From: Candidatus Bathyarchaeia archaeon
GTDB taxonomy: Bacteria > Patescibacteriota > Microgenomatia > PFEM01 > JAFGMK01
NCBI GenBank assembly: GCA_035529595.1
Contig: DATKWK010000023.1
Location: 601-64,600 of the forward strand
DNA: 64,000 nt
Reading direction: 5' to 3'
The translations under genes were made by a program, and so were the position numbers. Below the pieces are notes generated by a model, which searched no databases, was not told the DNA's origin, and saw only the letters and a program-made list of their open reading frames with translations. Position 1 is the stretch's first letter. Each line of letters opens with the position of its first letter. Shown here in pieces: positions 4,289-61,673 of this stretch.

Positions 4289-4834
4289 ATGATCCGCTAC
4301 TTAAACGGTGAGCTGCTGCCCGAGCTATCGCTGAGAGCTGGGAATGATCAAAAAGCAGTCAATTTTTGGATCGGACAGGCAATTTTAGCTTTTTGGAGGG
4401 TTGCCAAAGTAGGCTATTTTGACCGTCTGCTTGAGGGTCGAGGAGATGACGTAGGCGAGCACATGGTAAACGTGTCTGCGGTTATCGGTAGGGATAACGG
4501 ACAATCGTTACTAGAAGTCGACTTTCAGGATCCGTATCTTGCCGATCTATCTTGCCGGATCCCTCTTGCTGGTTTGCCGGCTAATAGTTCTCGTCTTTTG
4601 TCCCGACTGATGACTGGTGAAGAGATTAGTCTTACTGATACGGCAATCGGAAGATTGGGGGATAGCGATAGTTCGTACCAGACGCTTAAAAGATGGTTGG
4701 CCAGATCTCGTTTGGAATGGCTGATTACTCAGGATGACGGTAAATTGAGGCTAGCGGAAACAGTACCTTATTGGCGATTGAATAGTTTAGTAAGCGCGCA
4801 GGAAATTGTTCACCCCGGGGGTGCCCACAACTAG
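4289..4834 (+). CDS. hypothetical protein
   Basis: 181-aa ORF. The last codons overlap REP copy 1. Confidence 0.45.
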   Translation: MIRYLNGELLPELSLRAGNDQKAVNFWIGQAILAFWRVAKVGYFDRLLEGRGDDVGEHMVNVSAVIGRDNGQSLLEVDFQDPYLADLSCRIPLAGLPANSSRLLSRLMTGEEISLTDTAIGRLGDSDSSYQTLKRWLARSRLEWLITQDDGKLRLAETVPYWRLNSLVSAQEIVHPGGAHN

Positions 4835-4848
4835 ACACCTTGGTACAA
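4808..4848. repeat. REP-like element copy 1 (GTTCACCCCGGGGGTG hairpin plus TAGACACCTTGGTACA box)
   Basis: It has the same composite motif as copies at 17395, 54571, 55287 and 60818. It sits between convergent genes. Confidence 0.6.
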
Positions 4849-16700: not shown

Positions 16701-16958
16701 ATGAACGGCGAGACAGTGATTATTCGTGATCGGTACCAAATAACCATTCCTTATTCTTTGAGAAAAATGTTAACTTGGTTGGTTCCTAAAAAGGTAGTTC
16801 GGGTTAAGATTATCAATAAAGAAAAAGTCCTAATTGAACCCTATAGAGAGATTAAAGTGGATTGGCAGGAAATTTTCAGGCAGTTGACTATAATCAGAGA
16901 TTGGGGAGCAAAAACCTCTTTAAGTCAATTTATTGCCAAAGATAGGGAGTTCCACTGA
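16701..16958 (+). CDS. vapB: AbrB/SpoVT-type (VapB-like) antitoxin
   Basis: Swapped-hairpin N-terminus (ETVIIRDRYQITIPYSLRKML). Its stop overlaps the PIN gene start (ATGA). Confidence 0.55.
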   Translation: MNGETVIIRDRYQITIPYSLRKMLTWLVPKKVVRVKIINKEKVLIEPYREIKVDWQEIFRQLTIIRDWGAKTSLSQFIAKDREFH

Positions 16959-17371
16959 TGATAAAAATAGTTTTAGATACTTCTGTTATTGTGAAATGGT
17001 TTAGTCAGGAAAAAGAAGCAGACAAGGCGGAAGAATTACTTTGCGACTTGAGAGAAGAGAAAGTTCAGATTCTTTTGCCTGAATTGGTTAAATACGAATT
17101 GGCTAATGCCTTATTGAAGGGAAAGAAACTTAATTCATCTCAGGCTCAAAAAGCTTTAGCGATTTTTTACCGTTTGCCAGTCCTTTATATATCCGAATCA
17201 GAATCTTTGGCCTTTTCTTCTTACAAGATGGCTCAGGATTTAAATATAACTTACTACGATGCTTGCTTTCTCGCCTTAGCCAGAGCCGAAAAAGCAGTTT
17301 TAGTGACTGCTAATCCGAAACATCAGGCAGGAGTCAAAGGGATTAAGATTACCAAACTTCAGGATTATTGA
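16958..17371 (+). CDS. vapC: PIN-domain toxin (VapC-like)
   Basis: IVLDTSVIVKWF N-terminus and conserved acidic positions; the size (137 aa) is typical. Confidence 0.7.
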   Translation: MIKIVLDTSVIVKWFSQEKEADKAEELLCDLREEKVQILLPELVKYELANALLKGKKLNSSQAQKALAIFYRLPVLYISESESLAFSSYKMAQDLNITYYDACFLALARAEKAVLVTANPKHQAGVKGIKITKLQDY

Positions 17372-17394
17372 TATTTTCTTTCCATTATCTTTCC

Positions 17395-17437
17395 CCAAGG
17401 TGTCAATATATGTTCACCCCCGGGTGCACAGTCTACT
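17395..17437. repeat. REP-like element copy 2 (CCAAGGTGTCAATA, then a TTCACCCCCGGGTGCAC hairpin)
   Basis: Same motif family; it lies directly 3' of vapC. Confidence 0.5.
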
Positions 17438-20728: not shown

Positions 20729-20730
20729 AT

Positions 20731-21175
20731 GTTCCTCCTTAGTATCTGGTTCCGGTAGCCTCCGATGTTTTGGAGTCCCACCTACCGGAAAAAAGTTGAT
20801 CTTGTGAAACCAGCAGTCCGATGAAAAGCAAAATCGTATTTTGCCATCCCACGCTCCAAGGAGTCCACGCCTTCGGCGGGACACCTTGCAGGAGGGATTA
20901 GCGCTTTTTGCTCTTTACCGGACTGCCGGTTGGGATCAGACTTTTTTCATTTCACCTCGGAGGAGCAAGATCGTTGTCTTGCACCATCCGAGGAGAAAAT
21001 CACTCGGAGGAATTCGCCTCACAACCCTTATGTCCTAATCCCTAAACCCTATATTTTGTAGCCTTTCAAGAAACCAGCTGTTTTGCTGTTTTTTCGACTG
21101 GCTCTTCGCATTACGAAGAACAGTCAAGCAAAACAACAAAGGTAACTTGAAATTGTTATTTCAAGTTGTCAAGGT
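20731..21175 (-). promoter_or_regulatory. promoter/operator plus ~450-nt conserved 5' leader of the vWA gene (copy A)
   Basis: Blocks 20731..20820 and 20913..21175 are near-identical to 24808..24898 and 25108..25330. The promoter region has TTGACA next to the 22-bp perfect palindrome ACTTGAAATAACAATTTCAAGT. Confidence 0.5.
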
Positions 21176-21373
21176 GCAATAGCAGCAATATTTACTGCTT
21201 TTTTGCGAGCCAAGTATTTTAGGCCGGCCGCTTTATGGCCGGTTTTGAATGGTCTTGACCGCAAAGAGGTAGGGGAGAGAGATTTTTCAATTAATTGTTT
21301 TTATCTCTATTTCTTTCCCATCTCTTTAGGGTCAAGGTTTGTTGATTGACTTTTAATTTTTAAAAGATCTGAA

Positions 21374-24802: not shown

Positions 24803-24807
24803 TCTGT

Positions 24808-25330
24808 GTTCCTCCTAAGTATCTGGTTCCGATAGCCTCCGATGTTTTGGAGTCCCACCTACCGGAAAAAAAGTTGATCTTGTGAAACCAGCAGCCCGGG
24901 AAAAAACAGAAGCAAAATTAAATTATGTGATTAAGTCATTCCGAGGGTCGACTATTCGACCCGAGGAATCTAGCGAAGCGTGAATTATTATTCTTATTAT
25001 CGATTTTTACGCTAATGCTGGATTCTTCTCCCACAAAATGCGGGATCAGAATGACCGGTTCTTGTTGCTAATCACTAAAAACTGATCACTGATGGACTGC
25101 TTCTATTCTTTACCGGACTGCCGGTTGGGATCAGACTTTTTTCATTTCACCTCGGAGGAATTCGCCTCACAAACCCTAGACTCTAGTGTCTAATCCCTAA
25201 ACCCTATATTTTGTAGCCTTTCAAGAAACCAGCTGTTTTGCTGTTTTTTCGACTGGCTCTTCGCCTAACGAAGAACAGTCAAGCAAAACAACAAAGGTAA
25301 CTTGAAATTGTTATTTCAAGTTGTCAAAGA
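24808..25330 (-). promoter_or_regulatory. promoter/operator plus leader of the vWA gene, copy B (interrupted by MITE copy B)
   Basis: Sequence identity to copy A. It lacks a 46-nt internal duplication present in copy A. Confidence 0.5.
24935..25055. mobile_element. MITE-like palindromic element, copy B (GTCATTCCGAGGGTCGA...CAGAATGAC)
   Basis: Terminal inverted repeats. It shares the internal TCTAGCGAAGCG motif with copy A and is inserted in the leader. Confidence 0.5.
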
Positions 25331-25656
25331 GCATTGTTGAGAGCAATGGTTAAGAGCAAAGTTCTCTAGCCTTGCGCCCAACCAGCCGATCTCAAGTTGA
25401 TAAAAAGATACTTGCATAACGCTTTCTGAGATAGTCGAATAAATAGACGACCGAGTCGTCCTGAAAGCGATTTTTCAGCATCCACCAATTCATAGTCCTA
25501 TAGTATTCTTAATCTCCTTTGGAAGCTTGATTGGAAAGTCGAAAAAACTAGCAAAAGAGGCCTATTTTTGACAAAAAGATTGACATTTGTTAAACATTAT
25601 GGGATAATCTTACATATAAAAATAAGAGCGGATTTATTTTAAGTTTATATAGGTTA

Positions 25657-36013: not shown

Positions 36014-37489
36014 ATGAAGAGGTGTCTGGTAAAGGCGATCCTGGTCTTGGGCAGCAGTCTGTTTTTCTTTGTCCGCCCGGTTTTCGGATACAAAGCAGAC
36101 ATTTTACAATATTTGGGTGAAGGGCATGGTAGCGGCGGCGGTTACCATGAAAAATTAGCTCTTGATGAGTTAAGCGGTGAGGGAATCACTTATGAGACAG
36201 TCGCCTCGGATGGTGCTTCCGGATACGGTTACGCTTCTTTGTTTATTACCGACGGTAAATTAAGATATCCTGACGGACAACCGCGCTACGGGGTGGTTTT
36301 AGTCGGCGGCGGTGCTTCTTGGGAGTATACGACCGGTACGCCCGAAAGTGATTGTCTTTATAATAATCATCTCTATTGCGGTCCTGGGCTTCAGCGGCAT
36401 GATTCTTCATATACCAGCCTTTCCGGACGGACTCAATTAATTAACTATACCAATAATGGTGGTAACTATGTCGGAATTTGTGCCGGTGCTTATTATGCCA
36501 GCAGCCGTTATCGTTGTAACTGGGATAAAACATCGGATTGCGGTTTTTTAGGAATTTATCTGGGAATTTGGCCGGGGATTACCAATGCCCACGGTTGTAC
36601 TCTCGGGACTACTTTGAGACTGGATACTAGTCAGCCGATTAACGAAGGTTTCGGTTCCTCAATTCCCTGGGTAGGTTTGTATTCCGGTTGCGATTTTGCT
36701 GACTTCGGCAGTCCGGTACCGGATACCAGTTACGTGGCTTTTTTTGATGCTTACCAGAGCGGTGATTGTTATTGGGACAATTTCCAAGATAAACCGGCGG
36801 TGATGGTTTATGACAATGACGGCTTGAAAGGCCGGATTGTTGCCTCCGGTGTTCATCCGGAATATGGCGACAGTGACAGTACCCGGCCTTATTTTAAACG
36901 GCTGCTTAAATATGCATTAGCCAAAAAGCCAGCGATAAACTCCCTGGAATTAATCGGCGGTCAGGAGTATCAACCGGAAGATCCGGTCGGTGACGGCCAG
37001 TATCATTACTATTATCTGGATATTCCGGCAACGGAAGCTTATCAATTAACGGTAGAATTAAAAGACGGTTCCGGTTCAAGAGCCGGTCAAGATAATGATC
37101 TTTACCTTCGGAAAGGGGACTATCCGACTAAAGGAAATCATGATTATCACTCCGACAGCGCTGGTCCTCAGGAGACGATTAATGCCTTGCCGGCAACAAG
37201 TGGCCGTTGGTATGTGGGCGTTTACGGAGCTCATGATGACTGGCAGGGAGGCGGTTACCGGATATTGGCAAATTTGGTCCAAATTACCACTACCCCGACG
37301 CCGACGCCCGTCGTCTGCCAGCCCGCGGGCGATATTGACTGTTCCGGTAAGGTTAATAACCTGGATTTTGGCTCTTTAGCGGTTGATTGGCAGACGGCCG
37401 GGTCAGTTGCCAACCTTGACGGCTTGGGAGTGGTTGATGCGGCTGATGCGATCATTCTTCTGGGAAATTACCTGAGGAAAAGTTTGTGA
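36014..37489 (+). CDS. secreted protein with a PPC (pre-peptidase C-terminal) domain and a C-terminal dockerin
   Basis: The PPC signature is YYYLDIPATEAYQLT...DNDLYLRKGDYPT...SGRWYVGVYGAH. The dockerin reads DIDCSGKVNNLD...NLDGLGVVDAADAIILLGNY. Confidence 0.55.
   Translation: MKRCLVKAILVLGSSLFFFVRPVFGYKADILQYLGEGHGSGGGYHEKLALDELSGEGITYETVASDGASGYGYASLFITDGKLRYPDGQPRYGVVLVGGGASWEYTTGTPESDCLYNNHLYCGPGLQRHDSSYTSLSGRTQLINYTNNGGNYVGICAGAYYASSRYRCNWDKTSDCGFLGIYLGIWPGITNAHGCTLGTTLRLDTSQPINEGFGSSIPWVGLYSGCDFADFGSPVPDTSYVAFFDAYQSGDCYWDNFQDKPAVMVYDNDGLKGRIVASGVHPEYGDSDSTRPYFKRLLKYALAKKPAINSLELIGGQEYQPEDPVGDGQYHYYYLDIPATEAYQLTVELKDGSGSRAGQDNDLYLRKGDYPTKGNHDYHSDSAGPQETINALPATSGRWYVGVYGAHDDWQGGGYRILANLVQITTTPTPTPVVCQPAGDIDCSGKVNNLDFGSLAVDWQTAGSVANLDGLGVVDAADAIILLGNYLRKSL
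37301..37465 (+). repeat. ~165-bp dockerin-encoding module, near-identical to 38398..38562
   Basis: Nucleotide-level identity with only a handful of mismatches between the 3' ends of adjacent genes. Confidence 0.8.
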
Positions 37490-38586
37490 CTATTATGAGG
37501 TTAAAGATGTACAAATTAGTATTGAAGACAGTTATACTAATAACGATTTTTCTTTTATTAACAAAAGATATCGGAGCCGTTTTACCTTCCAGTATCATTC
37601 AACTTTCTCAAGACGTCGAGGAGTTGCGTTTGCAAACTGCCCCTCAGGCGTCGGTCGCTTTTTGGGCTGAATCAGTCAAAGACGGTTTTGTGGCTGAGAA
37701 TGAGTCAGAAAATTGGCCGACGGCGAGTACGATTAAATATTTTATCTTGACAGCTTTTTACCGGCAGTTTATGGACCAATGGAATAACCAGGCGCCGCTT
37801 GGCCAGTATGAGAAGGGAACAGGCGAGTCGGTAAGTGAAACTCTTAACGGTTTTACCTACCGTGATTTAGCCAGAGGAATGATGGGCTATGGCTATAGCG
37901 AGATCGGAAATTGGGCTTACAATCAGTGTGCCAATATCTGCATATATTTTTTAGGTGGACCTTCTGAATGTACGGTAAAAATTCATAGTTTAAATTCCGG
38001 ACTTGATTCGGTATCAATTGGTCGTTATATGCTGGAGGATCGACAGCCAGAAGATAATCTGAATCCCGTAGAGGATTTTGCCCTTTTATTACGCCTGCTT
38101 TTTAAGAACCAAATTCCCAATTTAACTGAAAGTGACCATGATAATATCCGTGAATGTCTTATACAGAATTATTTCCAGGAGAGATATCTAAGTTATATTA
38201 AAACCGGATCTTTAAGTTCTATACCTCCGGTCAGGAGTGAAGCCGGTTATTATCTCAAAGATGATAATGCCTTGATTTGGGCGGTAAATGTAGTTGACTT
38301 TACCGGAGACGGAGCCGGAATTGGCACCTTAGAAAACCAAATCAGTAGCTTGATTAAGCTACGTTTACTTGATGCGCCCGGCGATTCTATCTTGACGCCG
38401 ACGCCCGTCGTCTGCCAGCCCGCGGGCGATATTGACTGTTCCGGTAAGGTTAATAGCTTGGATTTTGGCTCTTTAGCGGTTGATTGGCAGACGGTCGGGT
38501 CAGTTGCCAACCTTGACGGCCTGGGAGTGGTTGATGCGGCTGATGCTATAATTCTATTTGCCAATTATAACAAGGAAGCAGACTAA
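37486..38586 (+). CDS. secreted serine-hydrolase / class-A beta-lactamase-like protein (STIK and KTG motifs) with a C-terminal dockerin
   Basis: ASTIKYF (S-x-x-K), IKTGSL (KTG), and the same dockerin as the upstream gene. Confidence 0.5.
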   Translation: MTIMRLKMYKLVLKTVILITIFLLLTKDIGAVLPSSIIQLSQDVEELRLQTAPQASVAFWAESVKDGFVAENESENWPTASTIKYFILTAFYRQFMDQWNNQAPLGQYEKGTGESVSETLNGFTYRDLARGMMGYGYSEIGNWAYNQCANICIYFLGGPSECTVKIHSLNSGLDSVSIGRYMLEDRQPEDNLNPVEDFALLLRLLFKNQIPNLTESDHDNIRECLIQNYFQERYLSYIKTGSLSSIPPVRSEAGYYLKDDNALIWAVNVVDFTGDGAGIGTLENQISSLIKLRLLDAPGDSILTPTPVVCQPAGDIDCSGKVNSLDFGSLAVDWQTVGSVANLDGLGVVDAADAIILFANYNKEAD

Positions 38587-47845: not shown

Positions 47846-50800
47846 ATGAAAAAACACTTAGCTGCGACTTTTAAAAAATTAGTTTTCCTCACTTTTCTTT
47901 TCTTTTTTCTCGGGAAATTATCTTGTAAACAGAGCATAGCCTCAGGCGGTTCAATTATTTTGGAAGCCGGTGCTAATATGTCGATAAGAATGACAAAGAA
48001 ATCAAAGTGTGATCCGGCAAGAAATTATATTTTTCAAACGCAACCTGTTAATAGGCAGCTTTTTGATATGAATAGCGATCCACTTAATAGTACGTTTAAT
48101 TTAGGGTCTTACTCTGCGGGGACAGCATTAGTGTTTTTTTATGATACTAAACAAAGTGATTATTGTAAAGATTCGTATACAAATGTGAATTATACAACAT
48201 ATGGGTGGGCTATTAGTGACACGGGAGTGGATAGTTGGACATTAAATCTTGAGGATTGTGCCGCTTGTGGAGGGCCTTTTTTCCAAGACGCAAGTTTTAC
48301 TCTATACGGTGTATTATTGCCGACACCAACACCTATACCTACACCAACGCCAGTTTGTAGTTGTACTGCCTGGAGTAATCAAGGTTGCGATACTTGGTGT
48401 CAGGGAGCCAATTGTTCAGCCAATTTGCTTTGCCAGACTAGGACTTGTAGTCCCCCGCTAGGCTGTTTAACGGAGCAACGGTGTGTTTCAAGCGCCAGTT
48501 GTCCCGTTCCAACACCGACACCGATTCCGACAAACACCCCGAAGCCGCCAACCAATACTCCCATTCCACCGACAAACACCCCGAAGCCGCCGACAGCAAC
48601 CCCAACTCAAGTTCCTTACTGTCGCTGGTGCGGCGATACCTGGCCGTGTTCCAGCGGCCGGAATTGCGACAGTTCTCCCGGAATCTGTATCGTCCCTTTA
48701 AATCGTAATCAGGGAGACTGCGACTGTGATGCCAATTGCAGCGGTAGTCTGGTTTGTGTTGAGGCTGGAACAACCGATCGTTGCTGTTATTACGGTGAAT
48801 CTTACAGCGACGGTTGTTACTATCCCTGCCCCGGGGGGGATGCCGGCGACTCTTTCGGCAGTCCTACCTCAGTCAGCACCCCTTATAATGCTTGTGAATA
48901 TATCTGCCCGCCGGGCGATGAAGATTGGTATAGTTTTACGGTTACGAGCGGCCAGCTAATTAATCTTGACCTAACGAGTCTGCCGGCATCTACTGATTAC
49001 GAGCTTTATCTTTATCGGCCTAATCAAACTGTAGCTGCCAGTTCAACCAGAGGCGCAGGTCTTAGTGAAGCAATCGATTTTACCGCCGATGCCACTGGTA
49101 ACTGGCGCGCTCGGATTTACGGCTATAATAATGCTTGGAATTCATCGGATTCTTTTTGTCTAGCGATTGAAGTAACTACGCCATCCTGTGCCGGATGTTG
49201 GCAGGGAACCACTTGTCTTGCTGGCACCACTAATACTGCTTGTGGAATGAATGGAGTAATCTGTGTCGATTGCACTGCAAGTGGCCAGATTTGCCTTAAT
49301 CGGCAGTGTGTTTCGCTTTCACCAACTCCCACCACTACAATTACCCCGACACCGGTCACTCCCTTCTGTCGTTGGACTTGCGATACTTGGCCTTGTTCGT
49401 CCTCGCTGACTTGCGACTGCGGCCCTAATGCCGATTGTAGCGGAGGCAGCTGTATTATTCTTGACCGGAATCAGGGAGACTGCGATGGCGACTGTAACTG
49501 CCGGGGCAGCTTAGTCTGCTACCAGCGCGACGGTACCGACTATTGTTGTAATGTTGGAGAAATCTGGGATGGTTCTTGTACTACCCCAATTACCCCGATC
49601 CCGACACCGACGCCAACCGTTAACCCTGCTTGCCCGGCCGGTGATGTCGGCGATAGTTTTGACGCTGCCGCCGTTGTCTCTGCTCCTGCCAGTTACAACG
49701 AATATATTTGTGCCATCGGCGATGAAGACTGGTACCGTTTTTCGGTTATCGGCACCGATATTAATGTTAGCCTTACCAGCCTTCCGGCTGACTATGATCT
49801 TTATCTTTACCGGCCCGATGGTAGTCTGGCTGACCAATCGGAAAATAGCGGTACTGCCGATGAATCGATTAGCTTCACGGCCGATATGAGCGGTGATTGG
49901 CGAGTGATGATTCTTGGCTATAACGGCGCTTGGGATCCCTCCGATAGTTATTCCCTTTTAATAACTTTAATTAACGAACCGACTGCCACTGCTACGCCGG
50001 TTGAGACTTGCCAGTGGACTCAAGGTGAAACGTGGGATACTCATATTATGCTGGGTGATGATCCCCAGGTTCATAGCTTTTCACCGCCGTCAGGAACCGT
50101 TGGTGATACCGAGGAAGTGGAGATCCGAACTTACTGGCAATGGTCCGGCTCTTATAACCAGAACCAACATAATGAAGATCATCGTGTAACAACGCCTTTT
50201 GGTATTTCCCAATGCCGGGATTTGGGTGATGAAGAGCTGGAAGGCCAATCGTTGGTCTGTTCGCCGGGACCCGGTACTTTATCAGGAAATTGGACGCAAG
50301 CAGATGGCGATTTGGAAGTGACGGTGGCATTTGCCGGAGATGACAGCTCTCCCGGTTCCCATTACTCACGCGTTTCCATTTGGTGGTGTGTAACGCCGCC
50401 GCCGCCGACGGCTGTGCCAACGCCGACGCCGGTGATTTGCGAGGCGCCGGTTATTAGTAGTAACTACATCTGTCCTGATGAGACTGAAACTGGTTTTCGG
50501 TTTACCAATGTCACTATTCCTTCCGGAGCCCAAATTAACCAAGCCAACTTACGTTTATATACCCGTGACTTCCATGGTGACGTTAGCCTGTTGGTTTCGG
50601 CAGAAGATGTTGATAATGCCGAGAATTTTCTAACCGATCCGGTAAGTAATCGTCTCGGGACGACTGCTCAAGTCAACTGGTCGTTAACCCCGGCCGTCGG
50701 TTGGAATCAATCACCCAATTTGGCTTCACTAATTCAGGAGATAATCGATCGTGATAACTGGCAGGCCGGTTACAGCCTTAATCTTTTGCTTCACAATACG

Positions 50801-52339
50801 GGCAGTAACGGCGCTTGGGCAGTGAATGCTTATGATAATTTGCCCTCGGAAGCCGCGACCTTGATTGTTACTTATACCTTGCCGCCGGATCCAATCATAT
50901 ATTCCTTTGATGGCCAAATCGCTGCCAGTGCTGATGATTCCTGCTCCGGAGCCGGAGAAATTCATCCTAGTTGGTCTGCCGGTTGGCCTTTAGTGCCGTT
51001 GGGCGGTCCTTCGGTAACTATTAACTGGCTTTGGGATGAGATAGAAGATCCTTTCGGTGGAACAATGCAGTACCAGTTCCAGTTGGCCCGGGATGCTGAT
51101 TTTAACGAAATCATCTTCGATAGCGGCTGGCAGGTTGAACTTCTGGAGGTAACTACTCCTGGTCTGGAAGACGAAAGAGTCTATTATGCCCGAGTCCGCT
51201 CGGACGGTGAATGTTTACCTTCTTCTTGGACAAATACGTCAAGGATACCTAATTGTACAGATGAAGATCCTTTCTGTGCGGAGCCGCCGCCCCCCAGAGA
51301 TCCGCCTGATGCCTGGTGTCAGGGCGGCAGCGTTTGTATCCGCTGGGGTTGGTTGCCGGTTGAAGGAGCAAATGAGTATCGGGTCAAAATTTTTGACGAA
51401 AATCTTTGGGAAATCTTGGATACCGACTGGAACGGGGCGGCAACCTTTCCTCGGGTTGACAGTTATCTTACTTACACGACCTGCGGTCTCGACAGCGACG
51501 AAATTTACTCTAGTCAAATCGGGGCACGCGGATTTTGCAGCTTTGAGCGCTGGTCCGGTTTGACTCCTTACTCGCACCATTGCGAACCCGGTCTTTCTTC
51601 TTCTTGGTTCCAAACCCAGGGAGGCGATGTCCACTCGCAGGGAAGCGTCGACTCTAATATACCCGGGGCTACGGCCGAGCCTTATTTTTCCGTTGACGGT
51701 TCTGCCGGCTATCCCGGTTTAGTTTCTTATCACGGCGATGAGGCTAGTTTTGGCAGCGGCGATGTTTCCACTACCGGCTGGCTGGCCCAAGACAGTTTTG
51801 CTATTCTTTATAATTTTGATTACTTTTATCGTCGTTTTGATTCACCGGAGGATAACCTTAATGAACTATCAGTCTCCCTTGATGATCTGATTAATGCCCA
51901 AGTTGGCGAGGATTTAATCGTCGTTTATCCTGGTGCGAGTCAGGATTTAACGATTACCGGAGGGGAAGTCACTGGTGGCCAACAGCTGGTTATTCTAGTC
52001 GACGGCCAGTTAACTATTACTGGTGACATGACAGCCACTAGCGCCGATAAAAGCTTCCTAGGTATTTTTACGTCAGGTGATATTCTTGTTGAAGGTCAAG
52101 TAACCAATCTCGAAGGCCTTTATTTTAGTGATAGCCGGATTGATTCATGTTCTTATGCTCCCTGCAACCAGCAATTGGAAGTAAACGGAGCCATGGTCGC
52201 CGACGAGTTTATCCTGTCGAGAAACCTGGCCGATAATACCGAACCGGCCGAAGTTTTCCGCTACCGGCCTGATCTTGTTTTAAACGCTCCGCTTCTTATG
52301 TGGCGCAGTCCTCAGAGTTGGCAGGAACTGGCTCCGTAA
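47846..52339 (+). CDS. giant secreted Cys-rich protein with PT linkers and two PPC domains
   Basis: 1497-aa ORF with a signal peptide. It has two YIC..GDEDWY.F...DYDLYLYRP...W...I.GYN PPC modules and repeated CDTWPCSS-type Cys modules. Confidence 0.6.
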   Translation: MKKHLAATFKKLVFLTFLFFFLGKLSCKQSIASGGSIILEAGANMSIRMTKKSKCDPARNYIFQTQPVNRQLFDMNSDPLNSTFNLGSYSAGTALVFFYDTKQSDYCKDSYTNVNYTTYGWAISDTGVDSWTLNLEDCAACGGPFFQDASFTLYGVLLPTPTPIPTPTPVCSCTAWSNQGCDTWCQGANCSANLLCQTRTCSPPLGCLTEQRCVSSASCPVPTPTPIPTNTPKPPTNTPIPPTNTPKPPTATPTQVPYCRWCGDTWPCSSGRNCDSSPGICIVPLNRNQGDCDCDANCSGSLVCVEAGTTDRCCYYGESYSDGCYYPCPGGDAGDSFGSPTSVSTPYNACEYICPPGDEDWYSFTVTSGQLINLDLTSLPASTDYELYLYRPNQTVAASSTRGAGLSEAIDFTADATGNWRARIYGYNNAWNSSDSFCLAIEVTTPSCAGCWQGTTCLAGTTNTACGMNGVICVDCTASGQICLNRQCVSLSPTPTTTITPTPVTPFCRWTCDTWPCSSSLTCDCGPNADCSGGSCIILDRNQGDCDGDCNCRGSLVCYQRDGTDYCCNVGEIWDGSCTTPITPIPTPTPTVNPACPAGDVGDSFDAAAVVSAPASYNEYICAIGDEDWYRFSVIGTDINVSLTSLPADYDLYLYRPDGSLADQSENSGTADESISFTADMSGDWRVMILGYNGAWDPSDSYSLLITLINEPTATATPVETCQWTQGETWDTHIMLGDDPQVHSFSPPSGTVGDTEEVEIRTYWQWSGSYNQNQHNEDHRVTTPFGISQCRDLGDEELEGQSLVCSPGPGTLSGNWTQADGDLEVTVAFAGDDSSPGSHYSRVSIWWCVTPPPPTAVPTPTPVICEAPVISSNYICPDETETGFRFTNVTIPSGAQINQANLRLYTRDFHGDVSLLVSAEDVDNAENFLTDPVSNRLGTTAQVNWSLTPAVGWNQSPNLASLIQEIIDRDNWQAGYSLNLLLHNTGSNGAWAVNAYDNLPSEAATLIVTYTLPPDPIIYSFDGQIAASADDSCSGAGEIHPSWSAGWPLVPLGGPSVTINWLWDEIEDPFGGTMQYQFQLARDADFNEIIFDSGWQVELLEVTTPGLEDERVYYARVRSDGECLPSSWTNTSRIPNCTDEDPFCAEPPPPRDPPDAWCQGGSVCIRWGWLPVEGANEYRVKIFDENLWEILDTDWNGAATFPRVDSYLTYTTCGLDSDEIYSSQIGARGFCSFERWSGLTPYSHHCEPGLSSSWFQTQGGDVHSQGSVDSNIPGATAEPYFSVDGSAGYPGLVSYHGDEASFGSGDVSTTGWLAQDSFAILYNFDYFYRRFDSPEDNLNELSVSLDDLINAQVGEDLIVVYPGASQDLTITGGEVTGGQQLVILVDGQLTITGDMTATSADKSFLGIFTSGDILVEGQVTNLEGLYFSDSRIDSCSYAPCNQQLEVNGAMVADEFILSRNLADNTEPAEVFRYRPDLVLNAPLLMWRSPQSWQELAP

Positions 52340-54250: not shown

Positions 54251-54570
54251 TCTTTTTGTAGATATCCTGGAGAAGTTGCCTGATTCGGCGGCTAGTATAA
54301 TTCGCTGACATGGTCTTTATCTACCGGTAAAGCCTCAATATCCTCAATATCGCTAAGGAGGACAATTTCCGGTTGTCTTTCTTCGGCCCTATGACCACGT
54401 TCAGTTAGAATTGTCTTCAACAAAGCGGATTCTGGATCTAATGGCGGTTAAGGAGAAGGTGTTAATCTTTCTATGCTTGGTCCGGCCATATTTTAAATTC
54501 AATAATAAAAAACGAATGTATTATAGGACTTGATTTTCAGAAAATCAATCCCTGATTACCTAACTCCGCC

Positions 54571-54616
54571 TGACACCCCGGGGGTGCACTGCTATTGACA
54601 CCTTGGTACAGAGGTG
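54571..54616. repeat. REP-like element copy 3 (GACACCCCGGGGGTGCAC hairpin plus TATTGACACCTTGGTACA)
   Basis: It lies immediately upstream of the Y1 transposase start. Confidence 0.6.
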
Positions 54617-54632
54617 TTATTTTATCCTCAGA

Positions 54633-55286
54633 ATGGCCCGACGAAAAGTCATCCTTGCCGAAGGACAAATCTATCATATCTTTAACCGGGGCGTAGAAAA
54701 AAGAGAAACATTTCTTGATAAAAGAGATTACCTTCGTTTTTTTAAAACCTCTGAGTATTACCAAATGGCTAATCCTGAAGTTCGTTTTTCCTTTCGTAAG
54801 CGCCCAAAAGTCGGAAAACAAACGATTCCTAAAAAAACACAGAAATCAGTCGATATTTATGCCTATTGTCTGATGCCTAATCATTTCCATTTTTTATTAA
54901 AACAAAATATTCAAAACGGGATATCAACTTTTATAAGTAGGCTTACCAATAGCTACACTAGATATTTCAATATTCGATATAAAAGGATTGGGCACCTTTT
55001 TCAGGGCAGTTTTAAGGCGGTCAGAATTATCGGTAATGAGCAATTACTACATGTAGCCCGTTATATCCACCTTAATCCTTTGATTGATTATTTAGTTAAA
55101 GATTTAAAAGAATTCAATTTTTCTTCCTATCCCGAATATGTCGGTCTGAAAAAGGGAATTAGTTCGCCTGACGAGATTTTGGGACAGTTTCAGTCAATTT
55201 CCGACTACGAAAAATTCGTTTTAGACCAGGAAGATTATGCCAGGGAACTGAAAAGTATCCAGCGTTTACTTCTTGAAGACCATTAA
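54633..55286 (+). CDS. IS200-like Y1 (HUH) transposase, REP-associated (RAYT-like)
   Basis: HUH motif MPNHFHFLL. The catalytic Tyr region is SYTRYFNIRY and the N-terminus is IYHIFNRG. It is flanked on both sides by REP hairpins. The start is at MARRKV; the track ORF begins at 54603. Confidence 0.75.
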   Translation: MARRKVILAEGQIYHIFNRGVEKRETFLDKRDYLRFFKTSEYYQMANPEVRFSFRKRPKVGKQTIPKKTQKSVDIYAYCLMPNHFHFLLKQNIQNGISTFISRLTNSYTRYFNIRYKRIGHLFQGSFKAVRIIGNEQLLHVARYIHLNPLIDYLVKDLKEFNFSSYPEYVGLKKGISSPDEILGQFQSISDYEKFVLDQEDYARELKSIQRLLLEDH

Positions 55287-55343
55287 CCAAGGTGTCTACT
55301 TATGTACACCCCGGGGGTGAACGCATATAGACACCTTGGTAGA
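55287..55343. repeat. REP-like element copy 4 (CCAAGGTGTCTA, then a TACACCCCGGGGGTGAAC hairpin, then TAGACACCTTGGTAGA)
   Basis: It lies between the transposase stop and the rplL stop. Confidence 0.6.
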
Positions 55344-56552: not shown

Positions 56553-56834
56553 TTATGCCTTAGCCTTAGCCTTAGCCTTAGCCTTAGCCTTAGCCTTAGC
56601 CTTAGCTTCTCGTATTCTTATTTTTTGTTCATCCGAAGCAATTAATTCTCCAAGCATCCTTTGATCTTGAGCCACTTGATCAGCTAGGCTTGGGTGGCGA
56701 CTCGTCCGTGGTCTGTTAAGTTGCATCTCTTTCCAGCCAGGTTTGGCTTTCTCTGAGATAATTTGAGAAGGAGTTTTCCTTTCAGTATTTGTCGCTGGGG
56801 TTTGATTATCAGACGTTGGTTGTTGTTCGTCCAT
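56553..56834 (-). CDS. small protein ending in an (AK)n tail
   Basis: 93-aa ORF. The C-terminal AKAKAK... tail is encoded by a hexamer microsatellite. Confidence 0.4.
   Translation of the reverse strand: MDEQQPTSDNQTPATNTERKTPSQIISEKAKPGWKEMQLNRPRTSRHPSLADQVAQDQRMLGELIASDEQKIRIREAKAKAKAKAKAKAKAKA
56557..56607. repeat. (GCCTTA)x8 tandem hexamer
   Basis: A perfect tandem repeat read directly from the sequence. Confidence 0.9.
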
Positions 56835-56962
56835 AGTCTCCTTTCTGTCCAGAGTATTATACCGCGGCTTTTAAATTAAAAACAAGTATATTCAGTCGTT
56901 CTGCAATTATAAATTAAACCAGCGCTATTTGGACTAGAACAAACAGTTGCTGTCAACCGCTT

Positions 56963-57487
56963 TTAGGTTTGTTGAAAGATCATTAGGGCATGCAGCAAGA
57001 TTCTGGCCATCAGCTGCGTTAAAGCGTCCCTTTCGGGTTGAGAAAGCTGTTCTCTAGACCGTTTAACTATTTTTGCAAATTCTCGGTCATTGATTCCCCA
57101 ATAAGGTTCGGCCGAATCAAGCGCTGCTTGAAAAGCAGTATGCAGTTTCCGGCCTGTTGACGAAAGGCTTTCCTTAAGTAGAAAAAGTTCGTTAAGCTGG
57201 TCATGGACGCCGTCAGTCGAAAAGCTGACTATAACTAGAGTTTTAATTGAAGGATGGGCCATCGGATTTTTTTTGGGAAACCTTATTCTTTGAGCCATTT
57301 TTTCGACGTCTCCGCTGCGGATATTCATTTGTTCAACAAATGCCTTGGCAAACCTTTCCCAAAAGGGTTGTCCTGAAGCGCTTTCAGTCGGCTGGTACAA
57401 AAATTTGCCGTCGGTGACGGTTAAGCCCGTAACCGGTGGTGGCGGTTGAGGAGTTTCTTGTTTAGTAGTAGCTTCTTCGTCAGGCAC
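56963..57487 (-). CDS. hypothetical protein inserted between rplA and rplJ
   Basis: 174-aa ORF. Confidence 0.4.
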   Translation of the reverse strand: MPDEEATTKQETPQPPPPVTGLTVTDGKFLYQPTESASGQPFWERFAKAFVEQMNIRSGDVEKMAQRIRFPKKNPMAHPSIKTLVIVSFSTDGVHDQLNELFLLKESLSSTGRKLHTAFQAALDSAEPYWGINDREFAKIVKRSREQLSQPERDALTQLMARILLHALMIFQQT

Positions 57488-59851: not shown

Positions 59852-60754
59852 ATGAAGTCAGATAAAGTTAAGCCTGTCCGGAAAGCAATTATTGCGGTTG
59901 CTGGATACGGAACGCGGTTTTTGCCGGCGACGAAATCGATTCCCAAGCAGATGATGCCGATTATTGACAAGCCAATTGTTCAATATGTAGTCGAGGAAGC
60001 GGTTGCCTCTGGCATCAAAGACATAATCTTGGTCACCCAGAAAGGCCAGTACGCCATGGAGGACCATTTTGATTCGGCCTTTGAACTTGAGGAACAGTTA
60101 AGAAACAGTCATAAAACCGAGATGCTACGGCAGTTAAAGGAAATACCTCAAATGGCTAATTTTGTTTATTTGCGTCAAACCAAAGACTATCCCTATGGCA
60201 ATGCGACTCCTCTCTTAGTAGCTAAGAACCTGATCGATAAAGATGAACCTTTCGCCTATTATTTTGGAGACGATTTGGTTAAAAGTAAAGTTCCTTGCAC
60301 GAAGCAATTAATGAAAGTTTTTTACAAGCAACAACCGGCTGCTATTTTGGCCGTGCAAAAAACACCGCCGGAGGAGCTTTATCGTTATGCGACTGTCAGG
60401 TACAAAAAAGGGACAAAGATTAACCAAATTGTGGAGATTTTAGAAAAAATGCCTCCGGGGAAGGCGCCCTCTGATATGGCTCAATTCGGTCGTTTTATCT
60501 TCTCCTATAAGGTGATTAAGCAGGCGGAAAAGAGAGTTGCCGAGGGCCGTTATGGGACAGGCAACGAGCTTTGGATAGCTGATATATTAAACGATCTGGC
60601 TAAAAGTGAAAAAATCATTGCCCAGCCGATTAAAGGTTACTGGATGACGACCGGTGATCCTCTTCGGTATTTGCAGACGATGGTGACCTACGCGCTGGAT
60701 AGGGAAGACATTGGCCCTGAATTTAAAAAGTATCTTCGAGCTCTCAAGGTGTAG
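59852..60754 (+). CDS. galU: UTP--glucose-1-phosphate uridylyltransferase
   Basis: AVAGYGTRFLPATKSIPKQMMPIIDKP. Confidence 0.8.
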   Translation: MKSDKVKPVRKAIIAVAGYGTRFLPATKSIPKQMMPIIDKPIVQYVVEEAVASGIKDIILVTQKGQYAMEDHFDSAFELEEQLRNSHKTEMLRQLKEIPQMANFVYLRQTKDYPYGNATPLLVAKNLIDKDEPFAYYFGDDLVKSKVPCTKQLMKVFYKQQPAAILAVQKTPPEELYRYATVRYKKGTKINQIVEILEKMPPGKAPSDMAQFGRFIFSYKVIKQAEKRVAEGRYGTGNELWIADILNDLAKSEKIIAQPIKGYWMTTGDPLRYLQTMVTYALDREDIGPEFKKYLRALKV

Positions 60755-60817
60755 ATTATTCTTCTGGTTTTGCCTTTTTTTGTATTCAATTTGGTTGCGT
60801 TAAGAAGTGTTTACCGG

Positions 60818-60868
60818 GGTGTCAATACCCGTGCACCCCGGGGTGAACACCGATAGACACCTTGGTGA
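60818..60868. repeat. REP-like element copy 5 (GGTGTCAATA, then a GTGCACCCCGGGGTGAAC hairpin, then ATAGACACCTTGGTGA)
   Basis: It lies between the convergent galU and GT2 genes. Confidence 0.6.
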
Positions 60869-60869
60869 T

Positions 60870-61673
60870 TTAGCCGGTAATTCTTTTTAGGTAGGGAATG
60901 ATCGAATTTTTAATCAGATCAGAAACTTCTTTATCCTTGATTTCGGCCACTTTTTTCCGAAACGCTTTGATTGATTTTATTTCTTTAGGATTAAGGATTT
61001 TCATCAATTGCCGGTGCTGGTTTATCTGCATTTCTAATTTCGTTTTGGAAATCTCCAAAATTTCCTGAAGATAGGCCGGCAGCACTTCGCTAGTCGGCAT
61101 TTTACGGTATTTAACCAGATGGACTAAATCATTCAGGTAAACAATCTTTCCCCAGCGCGGTTTGTAGATTTCATTCAGATAAGTCTCAACCCCGAGACGG
61201 GTTTTTTTGAGGTGCTTTAAGTAAGGTAAAATTAGAGCTTTTAAATATGCCCGTTGCCCGGTCAGATCGGCAAAAAGATCACTTTTAACTAGTTGCATTT
61301 TAAAATAGGCCAGAACATAGTTAGCCTCCTGTTTCTGAATAGGCTGCACCAGTTTTTTCAAGTGTTTATCCCTGAGTTTTTCCAGATGGGCATCCAAAAA
61401 AACGACTATTGTGCCTTGGGCAGCCTTAATCCCTTGGCAAAGAGCATAACCCTTGCCGCGGTTTTTCCTGTAACTGACCAGTTTAATTTTTTTGCCGAAG
61501 TTCTTTAATAAAGTTTCGGTTTTGTCAGTTGACCCGTCATTAACCACCACAATTTCTTCCGCTGTCGGACATTTAATAAGGTCTGTCAGTGTCTGGCCGA
61601 GATGCTCCTGCTCGTTATAAGCGCAGACTATTACCGATACTTGAATTCGTTTATTTCGCCTTGCCATGTGCAA
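60870..61673 (-). CDS. GT2-family glycosyltransferase (dolichol-P-mannose synthase-like)
   Basis: VSVIVCAYNEQEHL...VVVNDGSTDKT...VFLDAHL. Confidence 0.75.
   Translation of the reverse strand: MHMARRNKRIQVSVIVCAYNEQEHLGQTLTDLIKCPTAEEIVVVNDGSTDKTETLLKNFGKKIKLVSYRKNRGKGYALCQGIKAAQGTIVVFLDAHLEKLRDKHLKKLVQPIQKQEANYVLAYFKMQLVKSDLFADLTGQRAYLKALILPYLKHLKKTRLGVETYLNEIYKPRWGKIVYLNDLVHLVKYRKMPTSEVLPAYLQEILEISKTKLEMQINQHRQLMKILNPKEIKSIKAFRKKVAEIKDKEVSDLIKNSIIPYLKRITG

What the first reader, a model, noticed from the sequence alone, without database searches (positions are those of the whole stretch)
54571..55343. REP / RAYT-like system: IS200-like Y1 transposase flanked by REP hairpins, with dispersed REP copies
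The transposase at 54633..55286 carries the HUH and Tyr motifs. It is bracketed by two copies of a composite element, a CACCCCGGGGGTG hairpin plus a GACACCTTGGTA box, in inverted arrangement. Three more copies lie at 4808, 17395 and 60818, each at a 3' gene end or between convergent genes. This is the classic architecture of REP-associated tyrosine transposases, which are mostly described in Proteobacteria. It would be unusual in a small-genome CPR-like organism. The insertion also replaces the rpoB/rpoC genes that normally follow rplL.
Basis: partly seen in the sequence, partly recalled or inferred. Interest (0 to 1): 0.6.

Follow-up and report, generated by a model that had tools for sequence, protein, structure and literature searches.

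The report
Domesticated Y1 transposase with dispersed end-repeats
A small-genome (CPR/Microgenomates) bacterium carries a single, vertically inherited HUH/tyrosine "transposase" gene whose two 40-base end repeats also occur scattered between other genes; it belongs to an already described sister class of the REP/RAYT systems, so it is real but not a new kind of system.

Summary
A 217-aa Y1/HUH protein (54633-55286) is bracketed by inverted copies of a ~40-nt module: a 13-nt palindrome CACCCCGGGGGTG, a 10-nt linker and a GACACCTTGG box. Three more modules lie in intergenic 3' regions, giving 7 arms at 5 sites where 0 are expected by chance.

The protein is not a canonical REP-associated RAYT. 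It misses the NCBIfam RAYT cutoff (54 vs 80 bits), and the repeats have no GTAG foot. Its sequence and motifs (NHFH, FQ, YIHLNP, FSSY) place it with the TIRYT / TnpA_Y1 subclass 2.1 / Bertels Group 1 class. Those genes are flanked by terminal inverted repeats that form modest repeat families ("TIRtrons").

Eight related gene copies in seven other CPR genomes keep the same up/down architecture, and the palindrome centre varies by lineage. The upstream box supplies a TTGACA -35 for an apparently leaderless gene.

The gene sits at fixed, syntenic loci in sister species, which points to vertical inheritance. Homologues are abundant in CPR metagenomes.

The claim that it replaced rpoBC is not supported. 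A relative without the gene also lacks rpoBC after rplL.

Verdict: a new member of a known kind, of moderate-to-low interest. A genome-wide copy count could not be made.

The parts
54570..54610 (+). Upstream terminal repeat (half module B). It consists of the palindrome CACCCCGGGGGTG (54574-54586), a 10-nt linker, and the box GACACCTTGGTA (54597-54608).
   Evidence: The same module sits at the same place upstream of 8 homologous genes in 7 other genomes.
54595..54623 (+). Promoter-like site inside the upstream repeat. The -35 is TTGACA (54595-54600, overlapping the box), followed by a 17-nt spacer and the -10 TATTTT (54618-54623). The ATG lies 9 nt downstream, and there is no Shine-Dalgarno sequence, so the mRNA is probably leaderless.
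   Evidence: 10 of 12 match, with TG extension. TTGACA plus a -10-like hexamer 16-18 nt downstream, with ATG 6-9 nt after it, recurs in 8 of the 9 box-carrying upstream flanks (read). Function is inferred, not shown.
54633..55286 (+). Gene for a 217-aa HUH/Y1 single-strand DNA endonuclease-like protein of the TIRYT / TnpA_Y1 subclass 2.1 type. HUH is at 54882-54890. Tyr144 is at 55062-55064.
   Evidence: HUH invariant and Tyr144 >=90% conserved in 75 homologues. AF2 model pLDDT is 87. The best fold match is 4er8 TnpA_REP, with TM 0.74 on the target.
55284..55343 (.). Downstream terminal repeat (two-armed module C). It overlaps the stop codon. It consists of CCAAGGTGTC (55287-55296), N10, the palindrome (55307-55319), N10 and GACACCTTGGTA (55330-55341). 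It ends 9 nt from the rplL stop codon.
   Evidence: As ssDNA it folds into a long hairpin of -17.9 kcal/mol, z = -6.4.
4807..4847 (+). Dispersed half module A. It overlaps the last ~24 nt of ORF 4289-4834, whose stop TAG lies at the 5' edge of the box, and it lies between convergent genes.
17390..17430 (-). Dispersed half module D, with a 12-nt palindrome variant. It lies 3' of a PIN-domain gene (16958-17371).
60810..60869 (.). Dispersed two-armed module E, between convergent genes: an NTP_transferase gene (59852-60754, +) and a glycosyltransferase gene (60870-61673, -).
   Evidence: The fold is less stable than that of module C (-12.9 kcal/mol, z = -2.1).

Best explanation
This is a 'TIRtron'. 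It is a single-copy, vertically inherited gene for a class-2 Y1/HUH protein, known as TIRYT, TnpA_Y1 subclass 2.1 or Bertels Group 1 RAYT. Its own terminal inverted repeats flank it, and further copies of those repeats are scattered in intergenic DNA.

The cognate DNA is a ~40-nt module with three parts: a 13-nt palindrome CACC-N5-GGTG, a semi-conserved 10-nt linker (mACAnnTATw), and a GACACC box.

Proposed mechanism (inferred from E. coli TnpA_REP/REP and IS608 TnpA, not shown here):
- The protein binds the small hairpin that the palindrome forms on transiently single-stranded DNA, for example at the replication fork.
- It uses the flanking conserved bases (linker and box) to position a cut.
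- It cleaves using His84/His86-bound metal and Tyr144, forming a 5'-phosphotyrosine link.
- It rejoins the strands, so that modules (solo or head-to-head two-armed) are excised and inserted elsewhere while the gene itself stays put.

The upstream module also carries the gene's -35 (TTGACA inside the box). Binding of the protein there probably autoregulates a leaderless transcript.

Shown here: the fold and catalytic motifs, class assignment, module anatomy, its conservation with lineage-specific palindrome centres in 8 genomes (9 gene copies), dispersal in at least 3 genomes, and syntenic inheritance.

Inferred only: catalytic activity, ssDNA recognition, cut position, mobility of the modules, and autoregulation.
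For: **Protein.**
- It matches Pfam Y1_Tnp.
- The only NCBIfam hit is the RAYT model, and no IS200 model hits at E<=0.01.
- The best PDB sequence hit is 4er8, and that match spans both the HUH and Y motifs. 4er8 is also the best fold hit.
- BLASTP against the 35 reference sequences of Di Nocera 2013 (PMC3733652, Additional file 5) ranks 19 TIRYTs first, aligned from residue 1. Canonical RAYTs come after them.
- The motifs NHFH / FQ / YIHLNP and the FSSY tail equal the subclass 2.1 signature in Table 1 of Quentin 2018 (PMC6006769).
- HUH is invariant and Tyr144 is at least 90% conserved in 75 homologues.

**DNA.**
- There are 7 arms at 5 sites against 0 expected.
- Twenty-five modules from 8 genomes align with invariant CA.C...GGTG and a box conserved at 90% or more.
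- The fifth palindrome pair switches C-G to T-A in 9 modules.
- Palindrome centres are lineage-specific: CCGGG, TGGAA, CTCCA, CTGGG and CCAGG.
- A 41%-identical Levybacteria homologue keeps the same palindrome and box.
- Extra copies occur in L021 (3 in 20 kb) and L027 (1).

**Inheritance.**
- The Y1 genes of two Daviesbacteria sit at the same locus and are 84% identical. Their neighbours are 72-89% identical.
- The closest relative keeps Y1 next to rplL.

**Precedent.**
- TIRYT genes flanked by TIRs, some self-complementary, some forming moderate repeat families with dimers, are described in PMC3733652.
- 16-mers flanking Group 1 RAYTs occur about 12 times per replicon (PMC5581495).
- A R. 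rubrum plasmid TIRYT is flanked by a 13-nt palindrome, GGGGTCAGACCCC.
Against: - No biochemical data exist for any subclass 2.1 protein, so the mechanism rests on analogy.
- Half modules are not more stable than shuffled sequence as ssDNA hairpins (z = 0.2 to -1.2).
- Covariation rests on one pair and is not statistically decisive (74 of 500 shuffles reach the score). A dyad-symmetric double-strand binding site would fit the data equally well.
- Quentin 2018 found no REP-like sequences for subclass 2.1.
- The protein lacks the distal HTH / DnaA_C-like tail typical of that subclass.
- The GGGGWSAS motif is matched only 7 of 8 (GGGGTGAA).
- Only ~71 kb of the source genome could be examined, and it holds 5 sites, so genome-wide enrichment is unproven.
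- Five of the eight other Y1 gene copies examined show no clear extra copies within +-10 kb (L006, with shorter flanks, also shows none).
- No polymorphic (filled versus empty) site was found that would demonstrate mobility.
Confidence: 0.78

Rival explanations
1. It is a canonical REP/RAYT (REPtron) system. A RAYT sensu stricto disperses high-copy REP or REPIN hairpins.
For: It has the class-2 Y---NP motif. The RAYT model is the only NCBIfam hit. 4er8 is the best PDB match. The flanking repeats are inverted, and dispersed copies lie at 3' gene ends, two of them two-armed like REPINs.
Against: It scores below the NCBIfam equivalog cutoff (54 vs 80 bits). TIRYT references score 10-15 orders of magnitude better than RAYT references. 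The motif set FQ / NHFH / YIHLNP is that of subclass 2.1. Subclasses 2.2 and 2.5 have W[EQ], DH[LF]H and YIHYNP or YI[VI]ANP. There is no GT[AG]G tetranucleotide at the hairpin foot. The hairpin has only 5 bp. Density is about 1 site per 14 kb, whereas classic REP families have more than 100 copies per genome.
Confidence: 0.1
2. It is an autonomous IS200-like insertion sequence (TnpA only) that inserted next to rplL. The dispersed copies would be its MITE-like derivatives.
For: It has the Y1_Tnp domain. Both ends carry hairpin-containing sequences. One divergent paralogue (L022b) has direct, IS200-like end hairpins. L022 carries two Y1 genes 3 kb apart.
Against: It has the Y---NP motif, not Y---Q, and no IS200 NCBIfam model hits. 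Only one copy occurs in the 64-kb window. It sits at the same locus in sister species, with divergence equal to that of neighbouring genes. The ends are inverted repeats, which IS200/IS605 elements lack. The two L022 paralogues are divergent and have different palindromes, so they are not recent copies.
Confidence: 0.06
3. The modules are host regulatory sites, not substrates of the Y1 protein. They could be a promoter/operator, binding sites for a dimeric transcription factor, or 3'-end stabilisers. Their association with the gene would then be incidental.
For: The box contains a perfect -35 TTGACA with a -10 at 17 nt upstream of the gene. The palindrome has dyad symmetry. Dispersed copies sit at 3' gene ends. 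Half modules are weak hairpins. A MerR-type HTH gene is a conserved neighbour.
Against: The same module brackets both ends of the Y1 gene in 8 genomes with unrelated neighbours. The Daviesbacteria loci, for example, have no MerR gene nearby. The palindrome centre changes with the Y1 lineage. The downstream copy has no promoter role. The relative that lacks Y1 at this locus (L028, 16 kb) has no module. No Rfam family matches.
Confidence: 0.06

Closest known systems
TIRtrons / TIRYTs (Di Nocera et al. 2013, PMC3733652), also called TnpA_Y1 subclass 2.1 (Quentin et al. 2018, PMC6006769) or Group 1 RAYTs (Bertels et al. 2017, PMC5581495)
   Same: The best sequence matches are TIRYTs: gbm_2474 at 4e-26, then dau_2153, rba_2408 and pca_3049. 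The NH[YF]H / FQ / Y[IV]HLNP / SS signature is the same. The gene is flanked by terminal inverted repeats that contain a self-complementary tract. Repeat families are modest, with solo and dimeric copies. Gene copy number is low. A R. rubrum plasmid example is likewise flanked by a 13-nt palindrome.
   Different: The protein is shorter (217 aa against a median of 238, and many around 300) and lacks the distal HTH / DnaA_C-like basic tail. The TIR is CACC-N5-GGTG + N10 + GACACC rather than GGGGWSAS (7 of 8 match at best). The host is a CPR/Microgenomates bacterium, a group not sampled in those surveys. The upstream TIR doubles as the gene's -35.
E. coli TnpA_REP (RayT/YafM) with REP/BIME (REPtron; PDB 4ER8)
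   Same: It is the best structural match (TM 0.74 on the target) and the best PDB sequence match. Both have HUH plus a single Tyr in Y---NP. Both genes are single-copy and flanked by inverted cognate palindromic repeats that are dispersed at 3' gene ends.
   Different: Identity is 16-23% and confined to the core. The CPR modules have no GTAG guide tetranucleotide and no long bulged REP stems. The observed repeat density is much lower. The CPR protein has an N-terminal extension and a helical C-terminal tail. It scores below the NCBIfam RAYT cutoff.
REPINs (Bertels & Rainey 2011, PMC3116915)
   Same: The two-armed modules at 55284-55343 and 60810-60869 are two inverted half-modules that form one long hairpin. 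Their likely mobiliser is single-copy and vertically inherited.
   Different: The two halves share one central palindrome instead of being two separate REPs with a spacer. REPINs are tied to Group 2 and Group 3 RAYTs and reach tens to hundreds of copies.
IS200/IS605 TnpA (IS608, ISDra2)
   Same: They share the HUH/Y1 fold (Foldseek E about 1e-4 to 1e-5). Both have small hairpins near the ends of the gene. ssDNA chemistry is assumed for both.
   Different: IS200/IS605 TnpA has a Y---Q motif, is a ~150-aa core-only protein, has ends that are not inverted repeats, occurs in many identical copies, and spreads horizontally. None of these features is seen here.

Membership tests
TIRYT / TnpA_Y1 subclass 2.1 / Group 1 RAYT | Sequence is closest to TIRYT reference proteins over the full length. 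| tested here: met
   BLASTP against the 35 references from PMC3733652 Additional file 5. Nineteen TIRYTs rank first (E 4e-26 to 2e-14, aligned from residue 1). Canonical RAYTs score E >= 9e-11 and match the core only.
TIRYT / TnpA_Y1 subclass 2.1 / Group 1 RAYT | Motif signature NH[YF]H (HuH), FQ or W[EQ], Y[IV]HLNP, and a proximal tail with conserved Ser (SS). | tested here: met
   The protein has NHFH at 83-86, FQ at 123-124, YIHLNP at 144-149 and FSSY at 163-166. S164 is invariant in 75 homologues. The signature is from Table 1 of PMC6006769.
TIRYT / TnpA_Y1 subclass 2.1 / Group 1 RAYT | Gene flanked by terminal inverted repeats. | tested here: met
   The upstream repeat (54570-54610) and the reverse complement of the downstream repeat (55284-55323) align. 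The same holds for 8 homologous gene copies in 7 other genomes.
TIRYT / TnpA_Y1 subclass 2.1 / Group 1 RAYT | Distal C-terminal HTH-like domain (Bac_DnaA_C, HTH_23 or HTH_28). | tested here: not met
   The protein ends at residue 217. Pfam finds only Y1_Tnp. The basic GRPRK-type tail of the reference TIRYTs is absent. Subgroup 2.1.2 is described as heterogeneous in this domain.
TIRYT / TnpA_Y1 subclass 2.1 / Group 1 RAYT | GGGGWSAS motif in the TIR (present in many, not all, TIRtrons). | tested here: inconclusive
   Modules C, D and E read GGGGTGAA (7 of 8). Modules A and B read GGGGTGCC and GGGGTGCA.
RAYT sensu stricto (TnpA_REP, NCBIfam NF047646) | Score at or above the curated equivalog cutoff. 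| tested here: not met
   54.2 bits against a cutoff of 80.
RAYT sensu stricto (TnpA_REP, NCBIfam NF047646) | Flanking REPs with a 5' GT[AG]G tetranucleotide at the foot of a stable hairpin. | tested here: not met
   The feet read CTGA, TGTT, TGTA, TGTG and CGTG. Half modules fold no better than shuffled sequence. The definition comes from PMC6006769.
RAYT sensu stricto (TnpA_REP, NCBIfam NF047646) | Cognate repeat at high genomic copy number (tens to hundreds). | not testable with these tools
   The source genome is absent from the searchable contig collections. Only ~71 kb could be read, and it holds 5 sites.
RAYT-like domesticated transposase (general) | Single copy, fixed locus, vertical inheritance. 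| tested here: met
   One copy occurs in the window. Two Daviesbacteria carry it at a syntenic locus, 84% identical against 72-89% for neighbouring genes. The closest relative keeps it beside rplL.
IS200/IS605 TnpA (subclass 1.1) | Y---Q motif, ~150-aa core-only protein, non-inverted ends, and multiple identical copies. | tested here: not met
   The motif is YIHLNP and the protein is 217 aa with tails. The ends are inverted. There is a single copy. No IS200 NCBIfam model hits at E<=0.01.

The most novel reading that the evidence does not exclude
In streamlined CPR genomes this Y1 family may not be a relic. It may be a host-retained ssDNA-processing system whose 40-nt modules act as portable regulatory cassettes. 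The box is a ready-made -35 (TTGACA), and the two-armed form is a strong bidirectional 3' hairpin. The enzyme would then seed or maintain promoters and 3'-end structures across the genome and autoregulate itself from its own end repeat. This would give the first functional rationale for the large, uncharacterised subclass 2.1 (TIRYT) proteins.
Probability: 0.1. Interest if true: 0.6.

Novelty: new member of a known kind. Interest (0 to 1): 0.33.

Why it matters
Subclass 2.1 / TIRYT proteins are the largest RAYT-like group, and none has been studied biochemically. This CPR clade offers a compact protein of 217 aa with no extra HTH tail. It also offers a short, sharply defined cognate module that is conserved across lineages with lineage-specific palindrome centres. 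That makes it a convenient model for asking what these enzymes recognise and cut.

The finding also shows that reduced CPR genomes keep such a gene at fixed loci next to core genes, which argues for domestication rather than parasitism. It does not change current concepts. The architecture was already described in 2013 and 2018 for other phyla.

Tried and rejected
1. **Genome-wide count.** I scanned genome contigs and metagenome contigs with the pattern CCSGGGGTG-N10-GACACCTTGG.
   - Five and seven stretches matched.
   - Only the Levybacteria locus (L006 = L016 = L019) is clearly real, and L015 may be. The rest look like chance hits in unrelated, mostly high-GC contigs.
   - The source genome is not in either collection, so no count could be made.
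2. **Extending the window** through flanking proteins added only 4.4 kb on the right and 2.7 kb on the left. Neither stretch holds a new copy.
3. **Viral contigs.** A protein scan found one distant relative. A DNA-pattern scan found one chance hit. In that DNA pattern I mistakenly specified only the 12-nt form of the palindrome.
4. **Rfam** returned only two tRNAs, so no known RNA family covers the modules.
5. **Reference sequences.** The supplement of Bertels 2017 with group sequences is not held. I used the Di Nocera alignment instead.
6. **An intragenic TIR-like match in L011 (7406)** has no counterpart in L008 and could not be interpreted.
7. **Rejected: intrinsic terminator.** No T-run follows the hairpins. 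The single terminator-like call at 54596 is the box pairing with the downstream GGTGTT.
8. **Rejected: chance**.
9. **Rejected: rpoBC displacement** by the insertion.
Full report
**1. What is in the sequence**

The ORF at 54633-55286 (+) encodes 217 aa. The mechanical ORF begins at a TTG at 54603, but gene callers and all homologues use the ATG at 54633. It matches Pfam Y1_Tnp at 46.6 bits against a cutoff of 23. It carries H84-F85-H86 (nt 54882-54890) and Tyr144 within YIHLNP (nt 55062-55079).

Upstream lies CACCCCGGGGGTG (54574-54586), then 10 nt, then GACACCTTGGTA (54597-54608). Downstream, overlapping the stop codon, lies CCAAGGTGTC (55287-55296), then 10 nt, the same palindrome (55307-55319), 10 nt, and GACACCTTGGTA (55330-55341).

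Further copies lie at three places:
- 4807-4847 (+), a half module.
- 17390-17430 (-), a half module with a 12-nt palindrome variant.
- 60810-60869, a two-armed module with a 12-nt variant.

These are documented. The composite pattern CACC-N4-5-GGTG-N9-11-GACACC is found 7 times at 5 sites. It is found 0 times in 100 first-order Markov simulations. The dispersed copies are intergenic: A and E lie between convergent genes, and D lies 3' of a PIN-domain gene. Copy A overlaps the last ~24 nt of a predicted ORF.

**2. What organism**

The identical protein lies on contigs of up to 846,852 bp. NCBI labels the contig 'Candidatus Bathyarchaeia archaeon'. However, the contig carries the bacterial secE-nusG-rplKAJL cluster. 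The best RplL relatives are Microgenomates / Patescibacteria. The host is a CPR bacterium and the archaeal label is wrong.

**3. Which protein class**

- The only NCBIfam hit is the RAYT equivalog, at 54.2 bits against a cutoff of 80. No IS200 model appears.
- The best PDB sequence hit is E. coli TnpA_REP (4er8), covering both the HUH and the Tyr motif. ISDra2 TnpA matches only around HUH.
- An AlphaFold2 model (pLDDT 87) matches 4er8 best, with Foldseek E 1e-7 and TM 0.74 on the target. IS608 and ISDra2 TnpA follow.
- I rebuilt 35 reference proteins from Additional file 5 of Di Nocera et al. 2013 (PMC3733652) and ran BLASTP against them. Nineteen TIRYTs rank first, with E 4e-26 to 2e-14, aligned from residue 1. 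Canonical RAYTs follow with core-only matches, at 9e-11 for Pseudomonas and 5e-5 for E. coli b228.
- The motif set NHFH / FQ / YIHLNP / FSSY is exactly the signature given for TnpA_Y1 subclass 2.1 (Bertels Group 1) in Table 1 of Quentin et al. 2018 (PMC6006769).
- The protein lacks the distal HTH / DnaA_C-like tail that many members of that subclass have.

That subclass is described as follows. It is not associated with canonical REPs. It corresponds to Di Nocera's TIRYTs, whose genes are flanked by terminal inverted repeats. Some of those repeats are self-complementary, and some form moderately abundant families with dimers. Bertels et al. found flanking 16-mers of Group 1 about 12 times per replicon. 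An example I fetched, a R. rubrum plasmid 'transposase', is flanked on both sides by the 13-nt palindrome GGGGTCAGACCCC.

**4. Conservation of the DNA module**

Besides the window, I examined nine homologous gene copies in seven other CPR genomes. These are L006 (Levybacteria), L008 and L011 (two Daviesbacteria), L021, L022, L023, L024, L027, and the divergent second copy L022b discussed below. Eight of the nine share the following architecture:
- Upstream: (GA)CACC-N5-GGTG, a 10-nt linker (consensus mACAnnTATT), GACACC, and ATG 20-50 nt further on.
- Downstream: stop codon, GGTGTC within 0-10 nt, 9-10 nt, then CACC-N5-GGTG. L006 and L027 are exceptions on the downstream side, where the box is degenerate (L006) or absent (L027).

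Twenty-five modules align with invariant CA.C...GGTG and a GACACC box conserved at 90% or more.

The palindrome centre differs by lineage:

| Centre | Loci |
|---|---|
| CCGGG | window, L006 |
| CCAGG | L027 |
| CTGGG | L024 |
| TGGAA | L008, L011, L022, L023 |
| CTCCA | L021 |

The fifth stem pair switches C-G to T-A in 9 modules. That is the only covarying pair, and it is not statistically decisive.

A 41%-identical homologue (L006) retains the very same palindrome and box. The divergent paralogue L022b has CACCTTAAAGGTG at both ends in direct orientation and no box.

Folding as ssDNA:
- The two-armed module C forms a long hairpin of -17.9 kcal/mol, z = -6.4.
- Half modules form only a 5-bp stem that is no better than shuffled sequence.
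- In the Daviesbacteria type, the box can instead pair with the 3' half of the palindrome (-8.3 kcal/mol, z = -3.8).

**5. Dispersal and inheritance**

Extra modules beyond the two gene-flanking ones occur in:
- the window (3),
- L021 (3 in 20 kb),
- L027 (1 in 4 kb).

They do not occur within +-10 kb in L008, L022, L023 or L024, nor in the shorter flanks of L006. L011 has one doubtful intragenic match.

The source genome is not in the two searchable contig collections. The window could be extended by only about 7 kb. A genome-wide count was therefore impossible.

The gene is single-copy in the window. In two Daviesbacteria species it occupies the same locus and is 84% identical, and the neighbouring genes are 72-89% identical. 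In the closest relative (L027; Y1 65%, RplL 73%) it again lies between a MerR-type HTH gene and rplL. This is the pattern of a vertically inherited, domesticated gene and not of an active IS.

The HUH motif is invariant and the catalytic Tyr144 is at least 90% conserved in 75 homologues. The family is large: 5168 proteins score E<=0.001, and the 120 best are 53-66% identical. Where those are named, the names are CPR taxa.

**6. Promoter overlap**

The upstream box supplies a perfect -35, TTGACA (54595-54600). TATTTT follows 17 nt later, and the ATG lies 9 nt after that, with no Shine-Dalgarno sequence. The same TTGACA-16/18-(-10-like)-6/9-ATG layout can be read in 8 of the 9 box-carrying upstream flanks. 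I infer a leaderless transcript whose promoter lies inside the upstream end repeat. Such an arrangement would let the protein regulate itself. This is inference only.

**7. The rpoBC claim**

rplL is indeed not followed by rpoB or rpoC, and no rpoB is present in the window. But a Microgenomates relative that lacks the Y1 gene at this place (L028) has rplJ-rplL followed by a hypothetical gene and a MerR-HTH gene 85% identical to the window's. It too has no rpoBC there. The gene order is a lineage trait and not a consequence of this 0.77-kb unit.

**8. Mechanism**

The best-supported reading is a TIRtron. An HUH/Y1 ssDNA endonuclease/ligase would recognise its ~40-nt module and occasionally copy or move modules to other intergenic sites while the gene stays fixed. 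Recognition would involve the palindrome as a small hairpin on single-stranded DNA, with the linker and box as positioning or cleavage determinants.

The chemistry is taken from TnpA_REP and IS608 TnpA: His-bound metal, a Tyr144 5'-phosphotyrosine intermediate, and action on the lagging-strand template. It is not demonstrated for any subclass 2.1 protein.

Rival readings and my confidence in each:
- Canonical REP/RAYT, 0.10.
- Autonomous IS200-like element, 0.06.
- Host regulatory sites unrelated to the protein, 0.06.

The evidence for and against each is listed in the corresponding fields.

**9. Novelty and score**

Every architectural feature was already described for TIRYTs / Group 1 RAYTs in other phyla: the TIR-flanked Y1 gene, self-complementary tracts, modest dispersed families with dimers, low copy number, and vertical inheritance.

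What is new:
- The host group. No paper in the searched library links CPR with REP, RAYT or TIRYT.
- The specific module.
- The short protein form.
- The promoter overlap.

I rate it a new member of a known kind, with interest about 0.33.

Noticed in passing
window 20730-21178 and 24807-25333: A ~450-600-bp direct repeat, 97-100% identical, with copies ~4.1 kb apart. It lies upstream of two large minus-strand ORFs (18470-20884 and 23261-24802) (families D2, D6, D12 and D18). It may be a duplicated regulatory or leader region of paralogous genes.
   Followed up: no
window 37290-37470 and 38387-38567: A 181-nt direct repeat, 92% identical, inside adjacent ORFs 36014-37489 and 37486-38586. These look like tandem paralogues (D1).
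   Followed up: no
window 56553-57487: The rplKAJL cluster is interrupted between rplA and rplJ by two ORFs with no Pfam hit. One is 174 aa. The other is 93 aa and ends in an (AK)n tail encoded by a 12-nt tandem repeat at 56557-56604.
   Followed up: no
whole window / source contig: NCBI names the 846,852-bp source contig 'Candidatus Bathyarchaeia archaeon'. The contig carries bacterial secE-nusG-rplKAJL, and its RplL is closest to Microgenomates / Patescibacteria. The taxonomic label is probably a binning or labelling error.
   Followed up: partly
L022 10001-10654 (+) and 13507-14157 (-): One CPR genome carries two divergent Y1 paralogues 3 kb apart, each with its own palindrome (CACCTGGAAGGTG and CACCTTAAAGGTG). 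The second is flanked by direct, not inverted, repeats (palindrome + GCTAAATT) and has no GACACC box. That is an IS200-like end arrangement within the same protein family.
   Followed up: partly
L011 7406-7440: A TIR-like sequence, CACCCGGAAGGTG-N9-GACACC, lies inside a GT2/PMT_2 glycosyltransferase gene. The orthologous region of L008 shows no counterpart. It is either a possible intragenic module or chance.
   Followed up: partly
L008 9950-9978 (and L011, L022, L023 equivalents): In the Daviesbacteria-type upstream module, the box GACACCTTCC is exactly complementary to the 3' half of the palindrome (GGAAGGTG). The minimum-free-energy ssDNA fold is therefore an 8-bp alternative hairpin and not the palindrome hairpin (-8.3 kcal/mol, z = -3.8). 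This could be a structural switch or simply a consequence of repeated CACC motifs.
   Followed up: no
L031 (R. rubrum plasmid NC_007641.1, 32481-33188): A proteobacterial TIRYT-type 'transposase' (WP_011387744.1) is flanked on both sides by the 13-nt palindrome GGGGTCAGACCCC within a 19-nt inverted repeat. This matches the published GGGGWSAS motif and parallels the 13-nt palindrome of the CPR modules.
   Followed up: partly
window 47846-52339: A 1497-aa predicted secreted protein with Thr/Pro-rich linkers, repeated Cys-rich modules and PPC domains lies 1.3 kb from the Y1 neighbourhood. Internal repeats are visible (D15, D19).
   Followed up: no
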